Made by a program: the position numbers
In this document: in pieces, positions 32,601 to 47,600 of the stretch
Numbering within the stretch: the stretch's first letter is position 1
Layout: the number at the start of each line of letters is the position of its first letter
Assembly (NCBI GenBank): GCA_965637545.1
Contig: OZ281496.1
Span: 27,652,001 to 27,716,000, forward strand
Direction: 5' to 3'
Origin: Phallusia mammillata
Lineage: Eukaryota
Length of the DNA stretch: 64,000 nucleotides

Positions 32601-35600
32601 TTTACAAAATAACATAGTGAGTGGCATTTTACTGTTTCATGCTTTATAGTTATTGCTCATGGAAATAAATTAGTTCCTGCAAATACATTTTTGCTTGTGC
32701 TTGTTCATTTAACACGCTTACCTTGATTAGTTAGAGAAGAACTTTTACTCCAGTTTAAGTTGGCCGTGTTGGTTTTGGTTTGCTAACATATGTTCATAGG
32801 CTGGAATAGGATTTAGCAAAAAACAAACAGCACGTTAGTAGATGAAAACAGTGAAGTTTAAATAATCCCTACTGCCTGAAAATCAGAACTTCTAAAAACG
32901 AAAAATCTGTATACCTGTAAACAAATACCTGTAAAATATTTTTAATTGCCGCCGTTGTGTGGCGGTTGGTTAATCTTGTAGTTGTAAAGAGAGGTTTATT
33001 GGTAAATTTTACTAGTGTTTAATACAACCTACTTTAATTCTTAAAAACACACACATTTAAAATACTTACTAGTAATATAGTTGTGCTTGTGAAAGGAGTT
33101 CCAGCTTGTTTTCAGAAATTGTATTTTGTCAGGTGTGGTTAGCGTGTAAGGTGTGGGTAGAGATGCTGGGTTTTAACAATTTCGTGTTTGTTTGGTTTCA
33201 GTCGTTTGTGTCTTTTGTGGCCAAATTCAATGTTGTTAACGTACAGTATGTTGAGGTGCTGTTATACGCATTTAGTACGGTACCTGTTTGTAGGCCTACT
33301 TACATGTACAGCTAAAGCTGTCAAAAGTAGAGAAGTTGTGGCATGAGCATGAAAAACTTCCCACAAGGTTGACACAAGTGGACTCGGAAAAGCAATTGTC
33401 CTTACCAGTAGCGCATTCGTTAATATCTACGCCAAATAAGATATATGTAAGTGTGTTTTACCTTTCTATGCTGGTCAGCCCTTTTATAATTTGCGTTTTT
33501 TAGTTACTACTCTACGTAAGATCGAGAACATACTTTTTATTTAATTGCTACAACAGTCTATTAGCAGTAAATAGCCATCTTGTTGCCTATACTGACCCAC
33601 ACAGGTGGATCCGTTCTCGACAAAGCCGTCGTTGCAAATACATGCCAGACTTCCATTGTTGTTTCTGCAAGTCGCATTTTCATTGCATTTTTCACTTTCT
33701 TCCAAGGTACAATTATCCGACGCTGTTCTGTAAATATTTTATTAATGACAGTGAACACTTTCCGACAATGAATTTTAGCATAATTTAAGCAAAATAAACA
33801 TCTTAATTAAAGCTTCATAAAATTATTTAAACGTTGCTCACAGGTTTGCAGGAGTTGCGTTGAAAGTTGCGTTTAGTGAAATTGGGATAATGCATGACAC
33901 GGAATAGGTGGATTGTGCTCCAACGGTTTTCGTTGCCCGTCCGTGGTTAGTCAAGTTCCAGTAGGTGGACATGTGAGTTGTGTTCGACTGCAACAAAACA
34001 TCTCATATATTTCACGCACGTAATTTTGAATGCTTTTGTCAGTTAAGTTGTTGTATATTTTTCTTGGTAAAAATTATTACTTAAACACCAAAAACATTTT
34101 ATTCTCGAAATTGCGAGTTAAAGTCAGAAGTTATTAAACGGTAACTTACGTCAGTGAGTCCGTCGCAACTTCCGCTAAACTTCCAGTAACCAGATCCATC
34201 GTCAGTTCCACTGCATGATCCCAATGTTATTGCGCTAACGTTGGTAACACCGTTGTTTGCAAAGAAACTGCTTAGTGCCCAAACTTCCACACGGTCGGAG
34301 AAGCAAGTAAAGTTGACTGGTTGAGCTGTAAACACAACAGCCTGTTGTATTTGATGTGGGTGTGTGTTCTGTCCGACTAATACTTCGATTAGCTTCTGAT
34401 GGACGCCTTAGGTTTAAGTGCTATATTTATTGGTAATTTTATCATGTTTGAATAGCTGAACTCAAAATGATTTCTGGTGGTCTGTTTGTTTAATTCCAAA
34501 AAATAGTCGAAAATCTAAAATCGGAAAGTACTAGAATTTACCTACCAATGATGTTGTCTCTTGGACTTAATTTACAGCCTGAAAATTAAAACTCACAGCA
34601 AATTGTTCCGTTTACTCCGTTTGTGGATTGGTCGACTAAAGAGCTTGGACACGCGCAAGTGAAACTTCCGTTCGTGTTTTCGCAACTTGCTGACAATGAA
34701 CAGTTTCCGTAATTTGTCAAACATTCGTTATAATCTAGTGGAGAAAAAATGTTTAATTCTTGACAGCAGTAGAAATTCTGACGGTCCTTTTAAATCAGTG
34801 GTACTTTACATTTTGCAAGATTTTTTTTGCAAGATCAAGATTTTAAAATGTTTCCTTGTATACCTCTTGCTGCTTACAATAACTGACAAGAGTAAGCCGA
34901 ATTGTAGTTATAAAAATGAAATTCACAAGAAAAACGATTAGTGTTTTTACCCACTCAGCGGAGTTGTTTATGTTTAATTCGAAGATTATTCTCATACTAA
35001 ACTTATACATACTAAGCATTTACTATTTTTCCATAACTTAAATCAAATAGCCACACCATATCTCGTACCCCCGGTTTTGAATTGCTTCAATGTTAGCTTT
35101 CTTTCTTGTCTTTTTAAATAATTGCAAATTTGGTCAATTATATGTCTTAACAACCTACCATCACCATGAAATCCGATCAGTCTTATTGACCCTATTGTAG
35201 GATTCCTGATCAAAACGGTGAATTGATCCGCATTGTGGGTTGTTTGATTAAATGAAACTGTTGCGATGACTTGCCTTATTGGATCGCTTAACACTCTTTC
35301 AGCAGTAACTTCGAAAGTGTTGTATGATAGATGGGTGGTTATTGAAATTACCTCAATAAATTCCATGATCTACAAAGTTAAAAATAAATCTCTCTAATAC
35401 CAGAAAATTTTATTTTTATTTGTGTTATCGTACATTTAGATAACCAGTGCTTTGTGTTACAACGTGAACGTACATACATAGTCTGGAAGCAAAATCTTAC
35501 CACAAGTTCATGAATAGCAATTGAAAATGCATGAGTCGGATGGGGATTAAAAAAACTTGGAAGTGAGAACACTGCACGGTAGTCGTAGTCATGTTGCGCA

Positions 35601-44600: not shown

Positions 44601-47600
44601 GCTAAGGAACACTTTTTAGCGGTAACTTACCCACGCAGATAAGAGGGTCGGCAGTTTGGTTCACGTTGTAACCAGTGTCGCATATGCACGTGTAGGAACC
44701 GACGTTGTTAACACAAGTCCCATTTGATCCACATTCGTACCCAAGTTCTACGCATTCATTGAGATCTGTCAAGTGGTAAAAGATTTTGTGAGCTATTAGA
44801 ATTAATTAGATGGAGTCGTTTACGCTATTTTGTTTCCACAAAACACGCAGTTTGTAACGTTGTCTTACCTGTACAAGTAACACCGTCTCCACTAAACCCA
44901 GCATTACAAGTACACACAAAACTTCCACTGTTATCTGTGCAAGTGGCGTTCACGTGACAGTTGTTCAATGTGCTGTTTCCGCATTGGTCAACTTCAACGG
45001 TGAAGTTGAATGTCACATTGGCTGATGTTGGCATGAGGCATGATACTGGGTAGGTTAGGATTGTTCCAAAGACAAATGTAGCTCTTGGATCATCGTTGGT
45101 CAAGTTCCATTTGATGGAGATGTGTGTCGAGTTTGCCTGAAACATAAAGCATGGTTTAATCTTAAATTAATCTGTGTTTTTCGTGTTGCAATGTATTGTT
45201 AATAATATCGATTTCTCCGATTTAATGGCATCATCAGTTCTTATTCAAATAGAATTAAGGTAGTCTGAAAGCTTCAGTTTACAATGTTTTTCTGTAACTT
45301 GAATCATCTGTATTGAGCGCACGTTGGTGCAGGACGATTTCTGTAAAAGCACCGCGAGTTTACATAAGAATAAAAACGCGTTGTTATATTTTTTCATGCT
45401 AGTTTTGCGATGATGCTGATTTTGCCTTCTGTAAGGCGTATGCTACTTTAGTAAAAGTCGCTCGCCGGACTTCAATAATTTAATGAACATTGAAATCCAA
45501 CGCATGATATTTATAAAAATATTTTTTAACTTACATCAGTGATTCCGTCGCAACTTCCGCCAAACTTCCAGTAACCAGATCCATCATCAGTTCCACTGCA
45601 TGGTCCTAATGTTAATGCGCTAACGTTGGTAACACTGCTGTTTGCAAAGAAACTGCTTAGTGCCCAAACTTCCACATGATCGGAGAAGCAAGTAAAGTTG
45701 ACTGGCTGAGCTGTAAGAAAAAATACGTGGCAAATAGTTTGTTTTTTTCATTGGATTTATGTAGACACACGATTGTTTATAGTTTTTGGTAAACTTTCAT
45801 AGATTAAATTGACGAATTATCAGCTTTTTATTAATCATCTTTTTTCGTATGGATGATAAGTTTTTCTATTTCACATTTTTGTTTGTGTATGAACGTATGT
45901 GTTGCTTTCTTTCTTTATCAATAGTCAAATACGTCAAAAATTAAACTTACTGCAAATAGTTCCGTTAATTCCACTTGTTGATTGATCGGCGAAGGATGTT
46001 GGACATTCGCAGATGAAACTTCCGTTCGTGTTGGTGCAAGTTGCTGACACAGAGCAGTTGCCGTAGTTGCCGTGCGTGCACTCGTCGAAATCTTTACATG
46101 AAACCAATAATATAAGACCAGACTTGACGGATTCCCCTATTGTCAACCTTCTTTAGGGTTGCGCACTTTGTCGTTTAACACCTTTAAAGGTTAAATCGAA
46201 GATCTGAATAAACGATAATATGTTTTCATAATGCGTAAACCTATCCTAGTGTTTGATTTTATATCCAAACGCACCCCGGTTAAATGAGACTTTATGCTCT
46301 AGTTGTCTATTTTTATCGGTCCTTACCGTCACCAGTAAGCATTCCGCCGTCAATCATGATTGCCGATCCTGTATGACTTCTTAGCAGAACCGTGAATTCG
46401 TCCGCAGAATGGGAAGTTAGATTGAAAGCAAATGCGACGATGATCATACTCGGTGTGCCCATTGTCACTCGTTCTACCGTAACGCCAAGGGTTTGGAAGT
46501 ACAGGGAGGTGTCGTTCACAATTTCGCCAATGAAATCTTCCAGCTGAAGAAATAAATCAGGATAAAAAATCGTAGGATAAAAAGCAGAATAAAAATCCCA
46601 ATTGAATTCCAATGACGTTTGTGTGATTTTGAGTTACCAACAATTTGTTGGCTTGGTTTACTGTACTATACTCGCAACAGTTGGCAGAACTCACCATGTT
46701 TTCGATATCCATAATTGACGATGTCACAGATGTTGTAACCGAAATTATTGCACGGTAATGATATTCGTGTTGCGATGCTAAAAATAATAAGAAACTTGTT
46801 CATCAAAAATAAACCCCTGCTGTATGTTACCATTCTAATATTTCGCATTGTTTTATGGTCCAACTTAGAAGTTTACCTACTCAATTTGATTCATCAATAT
46901 CACACACTAATTTATGTTACGTAACCCGTAATGTGGGCTATGTATATAACACCACTGAAATGGGTAGAAAATTGCCCAAAAGTTATTATTTTTTTCATTT
47001 CAAATAAATGCGCAAGCAAATAATTTTTTCGATGTAAATACCCTGGCAGAAAGTTCCGTTTCCAGTAAATCCGTTGTTACATGCACACGTGAAGCTTCCA
47101 GGGTTGTTGGTGCATGTTGCGTTGGCATGACAACCGGGAGCTCCAACGCATTCGTCAATATCTGTTAAAAATGGAACATATATTACGGCATTAGTAAGGG
47201 TTACCTGGAGTCATTGCTCGATTGGTATGTACAAAAAGTAGTCACTATCGCGCCATATCTGGGAAAAAATGTTGGTTCTGATAGATGCTTCTTTACCTGT
47301 ACAAGTCATTCCGTCGCCCGTAAAGCCTGCGTTACAGGCGCATGTGAAACCCCCATTGATATTGTTGCAGAGTCCAACTCCACTACATGTGTCGGTACCG
47401 TCAGCACATTCATTAACATCTGTATCAACAAATACAATTCCACTCATTGTGCAGTTCTTTTACGACTAACATATATATGTTTGGTGTATTAGGAATATTG
47501 CAATAAACTTGAAGTCCAATATGCCGTATCTACAACAGCATATACATATTAACTCTGTTTATTCTCATGTCACTTTATACCTGTACAACGAGTACCGTTC

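What the first reader, a model, noticed from the sequence alone, without database searches (positions are those of the whole stretch)
33842..45710. Isolated ZP-N-like module, with no ZP-C, embedded inside EGF arrays (B and F)
Seen: a four-Cys ~100-aa module follows SEA-like + EGF and is followed by more EGF exons; no ZP-C-like exon is visible downstream in either gene. Established: ZP-N is the polymerisation unit of ZP modules, and isolated ZP-N repeats mediate sperm binding in ZP2 and abalone VERL. Inference: an internal stand-alone ZP-N in an EGF stalk is an unusual architecture and may be a dimerisation or gamete-binding site.
Basis: partly seen in the sequence, partly recalled or inferred. 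Interest (0 to 1): 0.68.

Follow-up and report, generated by a model that had tools for sequence, protein, structure and literature searches.

The report
Lone ZP-N-like domain between EGF repeats
Two neighbouring genes of an unidentified animal each encode a four-cysteine domain that most resembles the ZP-N half of egg-coat and uromodulin "ZP" modules, set between EGF repeats with no ZP-C half; this is an unusual arrangement of a known kind of domain.

Summary
On the minus strand, two exon pairs (F: 45710-45535 and 45136-44990; B: 34325-34150 and 33987-33842) encode a ~107-aa, four-Cys, sequon-rich module with canonical, phase-compatible splice sites and dN/dS of 0.22-0.36. Each follows two 'SEA-like' exons and a Ca-EGF exon. 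All 6 exons downstream are EGF. I found no ZP-C.

ZP-N identity is supported only weakly, and only for exon a. ESM Atlas neighbours are ZP-N/CUT_N clusters at 0.91-0.92. A low-confidence AF2 model of exon a (pLDDT 50.5) still draws ZP3, uromodulin, ZPD and ZP2 ZP-N structures as 21 of 46 listed Foldseek rows, none better than E = 0.6. Cys spacing fits. Against it, Pfam, PDB sequence searches and three large protein searches found nothing.

The spliced module was neither folded nor searched: the joined step was left out.

Copy B probably lies in a small gene of its own, with its own signal-peptide exon at 36129-36051. The 'SEA' label is unsupported.

ZP-N-only proteins have been known since 2006, so I rate this a new variant of a known kind. 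Its function as an interaction or capping module is inferred.

The parts
45535..45710 (-). Copy F, ZP-N-like exon a (phase 1 in, 0 out). Its 58 in-frame codons (QPVNFTC...SCDGITD) hold Cys1-3 and 3 N-glycosylation sequons.
   Evidence: Atlas ZP-N/CUT_N neighbours. AF2 and Foldseek.
44869..45136 (-). Copy F, exon b. The first 49 codons (45136-44990) are the second half of the module, with Cys4 at residue 33 and 4 sequons. They are fused in the same exon to a Ca-EGF-type domain (44989-44869).
   Evidence: EGF_3 E 2.7e-11. In PDB only the EGF part aligns, best to uromodulin.
34150..34325 (-). Copy B (gene B2), ZP-N-like exon a. 51 of 58 residues are identical to F.
33842..33987 (-). Copy B (gene B2), exon b (phase 0 in, 2 out). 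48 codons with Cys4 at residue 32. A 115-nt intron separates it from the next EGF exon.
45951..46091 (-). Copy F, Ca-binding EGF exon directly upstream of the module. 7 residues lie between its last Cys and Cys1 of the module.
   Evidence: Pfam EGF_CA E 1.5e-8. Best PDB match is uromodulin EGF, E 2.6e-8. Exon borders.
46327..46777 (-).
   Evidence: 4 paralogous copies align. No family found.
43593..44765 (-). Copy F, four further EGF exons: 44765-44631, 44421-44293, 44214-44089 and 43715-43593.
42794..42933 (-). Gene F, Ser/Thr-rich last coding exon with stop codon. AATAAA lies at 42556. There is no hydrophobic tail.
36051..36129 (-). Signal-peptide-like first exon of the proposed gene B2 (26 codons, phase-1 donor), 449 nt upstream of the next exon.
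   Evidence: (max hydropathy 2.23 against 2.39-2.80 for the three paralogous signal peptides).
34597..35601 (-). Gene B2, two exons of the unnamed module (35601-35501 and 35369-35159) and the Ca-EGF exon (34734-34597).
33304..33727 (-). Gene B2, two EGF exons downstream of the module (33727-33597 and 33426-33304).
32869..33011 (-). Tentative last exon of B2 (Thr-rich, stop at 32871-32869). AATAAA lies at 32601.
   Evidence: This is the weakest part of the model.

Best explanation
The two exon pairs encode a diverged ZP-N-type domain: an Ig-like beta-sandwich held by two disulfides, with Cys1-Cys4 and Cys2-Cys3 pairing expected. It stands alone, without an interdomain linker, ZP-C, cleavage site or hydrophobic patch. 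It lies in secreted, heavily N-glycosylated EGF-repeat glycoproteins of a tandem gene family.

Shown: the exons are real, constrained and spliced in frame between EGF exons, and no ZP-C exon follows.

Supported but not proven: the fold is ZP-N.

Inferred: lacking ZP-C and linker, the protein cannot build a canonical head-to-tail ZP filament on its own. The domain most likely acts as a protein-protein contact. It may pair with itself, as VERL repeats do. Or it may dock onto the free ZP-C end of filaments made by complete ZP-module proteins encoded elsewhere, capping them or tethering the EGF stalk to a ZP matrix.
For: - Coding and constrained: canonical splice sites and matching phases for 19 of 19 modelled exons. 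dN/dS is 0.36 for exon a and 0.22 for exon b. Four Cys are kept in both copies, with 7 (F) and 6 (B) sequons.
- Cys spacing is 30/16/38 (37 in B). The conserved ZP-N Cys sit at alignment positions 1, 29, 48 and 80 in nematode ZP-N (PMC7456536, passage read).
- ESM Atlas, exon a: ranks 2-4 are clusters carrying PF23344 ZP-N or PF25057 CUT_N (scores 0.92, 0.92, 0.91; 199, 192 and 169 shared features). 27 of 30 hits fall in those three sets. Recognition is 2376.
- AF2 model of exon a, then Foldseek against 350,542 PDB chains: 14 of the first 16 ranks, and 21 of 46 listed rows, are ZP-N-containing structures (ZP3, uromodulin, ZPD, ZP2-N1, ZP3/ZP1). The top hit has probability 0.69 and TM 0.52. An equally poor model of the neighbouring module gave unrelated mixed hits, so the enrichment is not a general artefact.
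- An EGF directly precedes the module, as EGF IV precedes ZP-N in uromodulin (PMC7737619, figure legend read). The flanking EGFs match uromodulin EGFs best in PDB (E 5.5e-17 and 2.6e-8).
- ZP-N folds can be about 10% identical in sequence (PMC5480393), so failed HMM searches do not exclude the fold.
- A capping role was proposed for ZP-N-only proteins (PMC7737619, section 16). ZP-N alone can self-associate (PMC1479692). VERL repeats form homodimers (PMC5480393).
Against: - No Pfam family for either exon of either copy, even at E<=10.
- No ZP chain in PDB by phmmer or hmmsearch at E<=10.
- 0 hits at E<=1e-3 among 1.84 billion representatives, and 0 in two word-indexed searches.
- Atlas gave no usable hit for exon b, and its first hit for exon a was an unrelated unnamed cluster (0.94).
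- The AF2 model is of low confidence (pLDDT 50.5, no residue at 70 or above). No Foldseek hit reaches E<=0.001; the best is 0.6.
- Only half of the domain was tested by either positive method.
- The uromodulin EGF ranking is inflated by three EGFs matching one query; the best single stretch scores 31 bits.
- Function, partners, expression and even the organism are unknown.
Confidence: 0.55

Rival explanations
1. The module is a lineage-specific four-Cys beta-rich domain unrelated to ZP-N. It would be a new extracellular spacer or binding domain whose resemblance to ZP-N is superficial.
For: No sequence method recognises it. Exon b has no look-alike. Both positive lines are below conventional significance and rest on a 58-residue fragment. 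The tool text for says a third of shuffled proteins also get ten concordant family hits.
Against: Two methods of different kind converge on the same rare family, which accounts for a few dozen of 174,310 PDB entries. The Cys count and spacing, the EGF-then-module adjacency and the extracellular context all fit ZP-N.
Confidence: 0.25
2. A complete ZP module exists. A ZP-C is encoded by exons missed here because they are too diverged, alternatively spliced, or lie beyond the modelled gene ends.
For: There is no transcript evidence, and the terminal exons are modelled from sequence only. Pfam also fails on the ZP-N halves, so its silence on ZP-C exons is weak. A 94-aa ORF with 10 Cys lies at 31355-31074.
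Against: - In F, the EGF follows the module within the same exon, with its first Cys 19 residues after Cys4. This leaves no room for a linker and ZP-C next to ZP-N.
- Every later exon is EGF (6 of 6).
- Introns are 76-649 nt, and the longest is alignable over its length to the corresponding intron of the paralogue B1.
- Stop codons are followed by AATAAA, and then by the next gene's signal-peptide exon.
- The Cys-rich ORF lies beyond the B2 poly(A) signal and has no family.
Confidence: 0.05
3. One or both copies are decaying relics of exon shuffling, spliced out or non-functional. The high identity of exon a would then reflect only recent gene conversion.
For: The family is in flux. Two EGF exons of neighbouring gene B1 appear out of frame; frame-breaking indels are documented for one (39205-39085). 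Exon a has been homogenised: dS 0.15 against 1.1-1.8 in neighbouring exons. Skipping both F exons would keep the reading frame (176 + 268 nt).
Against: Both copies keep open frames, consensus splice sites, all four Cys and most sequons. Exon b, which was not homogenised, shows dN/dS 0.22 at dS 1.8.
Confidence: 0.1

Closest known systems
ZP-N-only ('PLAC1-like') proteins: PLAC1, Oosp1-3, Drosophila Papillote, CG16798, CG10005, C. elegans F55A4.10 (PMC1479692, Table 1 and passages read)
   Same: Secreted proteins with one ZP-N (four Cys, 1-4/2-3 pairing) and no ZP-C. Some are long multidomain proteins (561-963 aa).
   Different: In all 8 proteins of Table 1 the ZP-N match starts within the first 81 residues, except in carp ZP1 (381-482). 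Here the domain is internal, directly flanked by EGF domains. Those proteins were found by a ZP-N HMM (E<0.1), whereas this module gives no HMM hit when tested exon by exon.
Uromodulin (UMOD)
   Same: EGF domains of the same flavour; UMOD is the best PDB sequence match of the flanking EGFs. An EGF directly abuts ZP-N. Some paralogues in this cluster end in a Ser/Thr-rich stretch and a hydrophobic C-terminus, like a GPI signal. UMOD ZP-N is among the top Foldseek hits.
   Different: UMOD has a 24-residue linker, ZP-C, cleavage site and EHP, and it polymerises (PMC7737619). None of these is present here. Presence of D8C was not examined.
UMODL1 / olfactorin
   Same: Combines Ca-EGF, SEA and ZP domains in one protein (PMC3542605, section 4 passage).
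   Different: It has a complete ZP module plus WAP and FN3 domains. The SEA identity of the module here is unsupported.
N-terminal ZP-N repeats of ZP2 and of abalone VERL
   Same: ZP-N folds outside the polymerising module, very diverged in sequence (10% identity), used for binding (lysin, sperm) and forming homodimers (PMC5480393).
   Different: Those repeats sit upstream of a complete ZP module in the same chain. Here no ZP module follows.
Ascidian HrVC70/HaVC80 and other EGF-plus-ZP egg-coat proteins (PMC11673550, section 4.3 passage)
   Same: Arrays of EGF repeats combined with ZP-type domains in extracellular proteins of marine invertebrates.
   Different: They carry a full ZP module at the C-terminal end, with a furin site and a transmembrane region.

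Membership tests
ZP-N domain (PF23344 / ZP-N fold) | Four conserved Cys with ZP-N-like spacing in a ~90-105-aa unit | tested here: met
   Cys at 7, 37 and 53 of exon a, and at 33 (F) or 32 (B) of exon b, giving spacings of 30, 16 and 38/37. Reference positions are 1, 29, 48 and 80 (PMC7456536). HMM matches span 88-102 residues in PMC1479692 Table 1.
ZP-N domain (PF23344 / ZP-N fold) | Disulfide connectivity Cys1-Cys4 and Cys2-Cys3 | not testable with these tools
   This needs a confident model of the spliced module or mass spectrometry of the protein.
ZP-N domain (PF23344 / ZP-N fold) | Significant match to a ZP-N / Zona_pellucida / CUT_N profile | tested here: inconclusive
   0 families for 4 of 4 trimmed exon translations at E<=10, and for the 4 stop-to-stop ORFs at E<=1.
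ZP-N domain (PF23344 / ZP-N fold) | Ig-like beta-sandwich ZP-N fold | tested here: inconclusive
   The exon a model has pLDDT 50.5. Foldseek gives 21 of 46 listed rows as ZP-N structures, but the best E is 0.6 and 0 of 342 matches reach E<=0.001. Exon b was not modelled.
ZP-N domain (PF23344 / ZP-N fold) | Secreted, extracellular context | tested here: met
   Signal-peptide exons, flanking Ca-EGF domains and 6-7 sequons per module.
Complete ZP module (ZP-N + linker + ZP-C) | ZP-C domain downstream of ZP-N | tested here: not met
   6 of 6 downstream exons are EGF. 20 unassigned downstream ORFs have no ZP hit.
Complete ZP module (ZP-N + linker + ZP-C) | Interdomain linker of ~22-26 residues leading into ZP-C (PMC7737619) | tested here: not met
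   In F the first EGF Cys comes 19 residues after Cys4, in the same exon.
Complete ZP module (ZP-N + linker + ZP-C) | Consensus furin site, hydrophobic patch and membrane anchor after the module | tested here: not met
   The tails of F and B2 have no R-X-K/R-R motif, and their last-15 hydropathy is 0.21 and 0.16.
SEA domain | Match to a SEA profile or SEA structure | tested here: not met
   No Pfam family for 5 ORFs of this module. A PDB profile of 4 copies gave 0 hits at E<=10. The AF2 model has pLDDT 59.8, and no SEA chain is among the listed Foldseek rows. Only exon 2 (72 of ~100 residues) was modelled.
Calcium-binding EGF | Pfam EGF_CA / EGF_3 above the curated cut-off | tested here: met
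   EGF_CA scored 35.2 and 32.1 bits upstream (cut-off 27). All six downstream exons pass EGF_CA or EGF_3.

The most novel reading that the evidence does not exclude
The module is a ZP-N so diverged that nothing among 1.84 billion representative proteins resembles its first exon. It would found an unsampled ZP-N subfamily. Placed mid-chain in an EGF stalk, it would work as a plug: it docks on the growing ZP-C end of ZP filaments and thereby caps them or hangs an EGF-repeat glycoprotein on a ZP matrix. This would be the first natural test case of the 'ZP-N-only terminator' idea. Exon-limited gene conversion between the two genes would then be keeping the docking face identical.
Probability: 0.15. 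Interest if true: 0.6.

Novelty: new variant of a known kind. Interest (0 to 1): 0.38.

Why it matters
What isolated ZP-N domains do is still an open question; the uromodulin filament paper raises capping of ZP filaments only as a possibility (PMC7737619, section 16). A ZP-N-type domain wedged between EGF repeats, present in two paralogues and kept identical in its first half by gene conversion, would be a compact natural construct for testing three options: self-association, filament capping or ligand binding. It also shows how such modules move by exon shuffling, since the ZP-N and EGF exons together form a phase 1-1 cassette. If the fold turns out not to be ZP-N, the finding is merely one more orphan extracellular domain.

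Tried and rejected
- Sequence searches with exon a: the search for homologous proteins 'longer' (23 candidates, none scored), the two-copy alignment at E<=10 (108 candidates, none) and HMMER against 1.84 billion representatives (0 hits). All were empty.
- Search with a 4-copy alignment of the neighbouring module: 5770 candidates, none scored.
- PDB sequence searches with exons a and b, as single sequences and as profiles: only chance hits, E 0.57-7.1.
- Pfam at E<=10 on trimmed exons: nothing.
- ESM Atlas on exon b: no usable hit.
- Complex prediction with exon a and exon b as two separate chains: 'no answer' (ipSAE 0.18 and 0.22, mark 0.34, partner pLDDT below 50). This counts neither for nor against.
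- AF2 on exon 2 of the 'SEA-like' module, then Foldseek: low confidence, mixed hits (PX domains, LiCMS regulatory domain), no SEA.
- RNA structure as the cause of the exon a identity: z-scores +0.5 and +1.9. Rejected.
- Rfam and tRNA scans to place the organism: only one tRNA-Ser.
- Rejected reading: a stop codon inside the aligned B copy of the upstream module suggested a pseudogene. It lies in the intron, just before the acceptor.
- Not done: folding, HMM scanning or searching of the spliced (joined) module, left out. Orthologous loci and the source organism therefore stayed unchecked.

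
Full report
**Scope and limits.**
- The window has no N.
- It looks like a compact animal genome: about 37% G+C, GT-AG introns of 76-649 nt and long runs of Ca-binding EGF exons.
- The organism could not be named. All protein searches with window sequences came back empty, Rfam gave only one tRNA, and no collection of eukaryotic contigs was open.
- Supplements of the papers cited were closed. Lists of ZP-N-only proteins that may sit there were not seen.

**What is there.**
- All genes of interest are on the minus strand.
- The module is encoded twice. 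tblastn of exon a finds two places only, with the next hit at E = 1.1.
- Copy F: exon a is 45710-45535, a 398-nt intron follows, and exon b starts at 45136. The first 49 codons of exon b finish the module, and the same exon runs on into an EGF domain ending at 44869.
- Copy B: exon a is 34325-34150, the intron is 162 nt, and exon b is 33987-33842. A 115-nt intron then separates exon b from the next EGF exon.
- Translations, printed per exon:
  - F exon a: QPVNFTCFSDHVEVWALSSFFANSSVTNVSALTLGPCSGTDDGSGYWKFGGSCDGITD
  - F exon b, module part: ANSTHISIKWNLTNDDPRATFVFGTILTYPVSCLMPTSANVTFNFTVEV
- Cys positions give spacings of 30, 16 and 38 (37 in B). There are 7 sequons in F and 6 in B.
- All 19 exons modelled around the two copies have AG and GT borders and fitting phases.
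- The ends of the finding's interval coincide with real exon borders.

**Are the exons real coding sequence?**
- Between F and B, exon a has 51 of 58 identical residues, with 5 synonymous and 7 non-synonymous codon differences.
- Exon b has 25 of 47 aligned codons identical. The four Cys and the motifs WNLTN and TY.VSC are kept.
- Nei-Gojobori dN/dS is 0.36 for exon a and 0.22 for exon b. Both copies have therefore evolved under purifying selection.

**Context and gene models.**
- Signal-peptide exons of one type lie at 62305, 54096 and 41599. Similar ORFs lie near 30700 and 17900. The window thus holds a tandem family of EGF-repeat genes.
- A scan found 34 phase 1-1 EGF exons between 54200 and 32800.
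- Gene F starts at 54096 and carries many EGFs. It has two copies of an unnamed ~100-aa two-exon module (49786-49097 and 46777-46327). After the second come a Ca-EGF exon (46091-45951), the ZP-N-like module, five EGFs and a Ser/Thr-rich last exon (42933-42794). AATAAA lies at 42556.
- The stretch 41901-42202 is 67% identical to 54958-55295, which lies between the end of the previous gene and the start of F. This supports the view that F ends before 42202.
  - B1 runs from 41599 to a terminal exon ending at 37268, followed by two AATAAA signals at 37133 and 37119.
  - At 36129-36051 lies a different signal-peptide-like exon: 26 codons, hydropathy maximum 2.23, phase-1 donor. It fits the phase-1 acceptor at 35601.
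  - The compact gene B2 would then be signal peptide, unnamed module, EGF, ZP-N-like module, EGF, EGF and a tentative Thr-rich tail (33011-32869).
- Read-through from B1 by skipping its tail exon would also stay in frame. Only transcripts can decide between the two.

**No ZP-C.**
- In F the EGF follows the module inside the same exon. Its first Cys comes 19 residues after Cys4, which leaves no room for the 22-26-residue linker of polymerising ZP modules (PMC7737619, passage read).
- All six downstream exons of the two genes are EGF_CA or EGF_3.
- Introns after the module are 101, 207, 76, 371 and 649 nt in F and 115, 168 and 290 nt in B2.
- There are 25 (F) and 30 (B2) unassigned minus-strand ORFs of 25 aa or more downstream. 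I scanned 20 of these 55, the longest, and none gave a ZP family at E<=1.
- This negative is weakened by the fact that Pfam does not see the ZP-N halves either. The geometry of F is the stronger argument.
- The tails of F, B1 and B2 are not hydrophobic (last-15 hydropathy 0.21, -0.84, 0.16). Two paralogues end in a hydrophobic, GPI-signal-like tail (1.98 and 2.15).

**Is it ZP-N? Evidence against.**
- Pfam finds nothing for any of the four exons, even at E<=10.
- PDB sequence searches with single exons and two-copy profiles find no ZP chain.
- Three large protein searches find no relative at all.
- Atlas has no usable neighbour for exon b.

**Is it ZP-N? Evidence for.**
- (i) For exon a, the ESM Atlas ranks clusters carrying PF23344 ZP-N or PF25057 CUT_N second to fourth (0.92, 0.92, 0.91; 199, 192 and 169 shared features). 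27 of 30 hits fall in those sets, with recognition 2376, above the tool's 2300 line. The first hit (0.94) was an unrelated unnamed cluster.
- (ii) AlphaFold2 on the two-copy alignment of exon a gave a poor model: pLDDT 50.5, strands at 4-7, 12-17, 38-41 and 46-51. Foldseek against PDB nevertheless put ZP-N structures in 14 of the first 16 ranks and 21 of the 46 rows listed. These were ZP3 ZP-N, uromodulin filament chains, ZPD, ZP2 ZP-N1 and ZP3/ZP1.
  - None is individually significant: best E 0.6, probability 0.69, TM 0.52, and 0 of 342 matches at E<=0.001.
  - The ZP3 entries are much longer chains (467-472 residues), so the match could in principle lie outside their ZP-N part. The other ZP hits are short ZP-only chains (100-170 residues), so the signal is the ZP-N part.
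  - As a control, the equally poor model of the neighbouring module (pLDDT 59.8) drew a mixed bag with no theme related to its supposed family.
- (iii) The Cys count and spacing fit published ZP-N positions (PMC7456536).
- (iv) An EGF directly precedes the module, as in uromodulin. The flanking EGFs match uromodulin EGFs best in PDB. That ranking partly reflects three uromodulin EGFs matching one query.
- (v) ZP-N folds are known to share as little as 10% identity (PMC5480393), so HMM silence on half-domains does not decide the matter.

I put the probability of a ZP-N fold at about 0.7-0.75.

**How it probably works.** This part is inferred, not shown.
- Canonical ZP filaments need ZP-N, the linker and an activated ZP-C (PMC7737619). 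A protein with ZP-N alone cannot extend such a filament.
- Isolated ZP-N can self-associate (PMC1479692), and VERL repeats form antiparallel homodimers (PMC5480393).
- The uromodulin filament paper proposes that ZP-N-only proteins attach to the growing end of filaments and block extension (section 16, passage read).
- The most economical reading is therefore a glycosylated contact module on an EGF stalk, either homophilic or docking onto complete ZP-module proteins encoded elsewhere.
- A gamete role is possible, but nothing here speaks to it.

**An unexpected detail.**
- The identity between the two copies is confined to exon a. 178 of 190 nt are identical across 45716-45527 and 34331-34142, which is the exon plus 6 and 8 flanking bases.
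- The 60 nt on either side align at chance level (38 of 72 and 39 of 68 columns). Neighbouring exons have dS of 1.1-1.8 against 0.15 for exon a.
- Five or fewer synonymous differences at 37 sites has probability 3e-8 to 1e-11 under the neighbours' rates.
- No RNA structure explains it.
- A short gene-conversion tract is the simplest account. Selection on the first half of the domain may have helped to fix it.

**Novelty.**
- ZP-N without ZP-C has been known since 2006: 8 proteins, including long multidomain ones (PMC1479692, Table 1 read).
- I found no description of a ZP-N placed internally between EGF domains with no ZP module in the chain. This rests on three full-text searches (listings and abstracts seen) and on passages read in eight papers. 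That is not proof of absence.
- I rate it a new variant of a known kind, of moderate interest. The main uncertainty is the fold.

Noticed in passing
45527-45716 and 34142-34331 (minus): An exon-limited 190-nt tract is 94% identical (178/190) between the two module copies. Flanking introns are unalignable and neighbouring exons have dS above 1. This is probably a short gene-conversion tract covering exactly exon a.
   Followed up: yes
36051-36129 (minus): A signal-peptide-like exon (MQRTFLLVAVQAAVAGLGLAMMLSHA, phase-1 donor) unlike the family's usual one.
   Followed up: partly
14000-62341 (minus): A tandem family of at least five or six EGF-repeat genes. Signal-peptide exons lie at about 62305, 54096, 41599, 30700 and 17900. 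Two members end in a Ser/Thr-rich stretch and a hydrophobic, GPI-signal-like tail (56044-55823 and 14184-14017).
   Followed up: partly
39085-39205 and 40776-40952 (minus): Two EGF exons of gene B1 look decayed. 39205-39085 carries frame-breaking indels relative to its counterpart in F (44991-44869). The 40952-40776 EGF is split over two reading frames. They may be skipped or dead exons.
   Followed up: partly
41901-42202 and 54958-55295: About 300 nt are 67% identical, each lying 300-900 nt upstream of a signal-peptide exon (41599 and 54096). This is probably a shared promoter or 5' region of the duplicated genes.
   Followed up: no
37268-37465 (minus): The tail exon of B1 holds R-L-R-R followed by Ser, a furin-type site. 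It is absent from the homologous tails of F and B2.
   Followed up: no
7640-9985 (plus); repeat 7712-9416: A 781-codon open frame built from 21 copies of an 81-nt unit (85% matches) encodes a Pro/Thr/Val-rich repeat protein. There is no Pfam family for its non-repeat end.
   Followed up: partly
18564-18639 (minus): A tRNA-Ser (anticodon GGA; Rfam 55.3 bits) lies between two genes of the EGF family.
   Followed up: no
31074-31355 (minus): A 94-codon ORF with 10 Cys and no Pfam family lies between the B2 poly(A) signal and the next gene's first exon.
   Followed up: partly
46327-46777, 49097-49786, 57345-57569, 35159-35601 (minus): A ~100-aa two-exon module is present in four copies (40-71% identical in exon 2).
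   Followed up: partly
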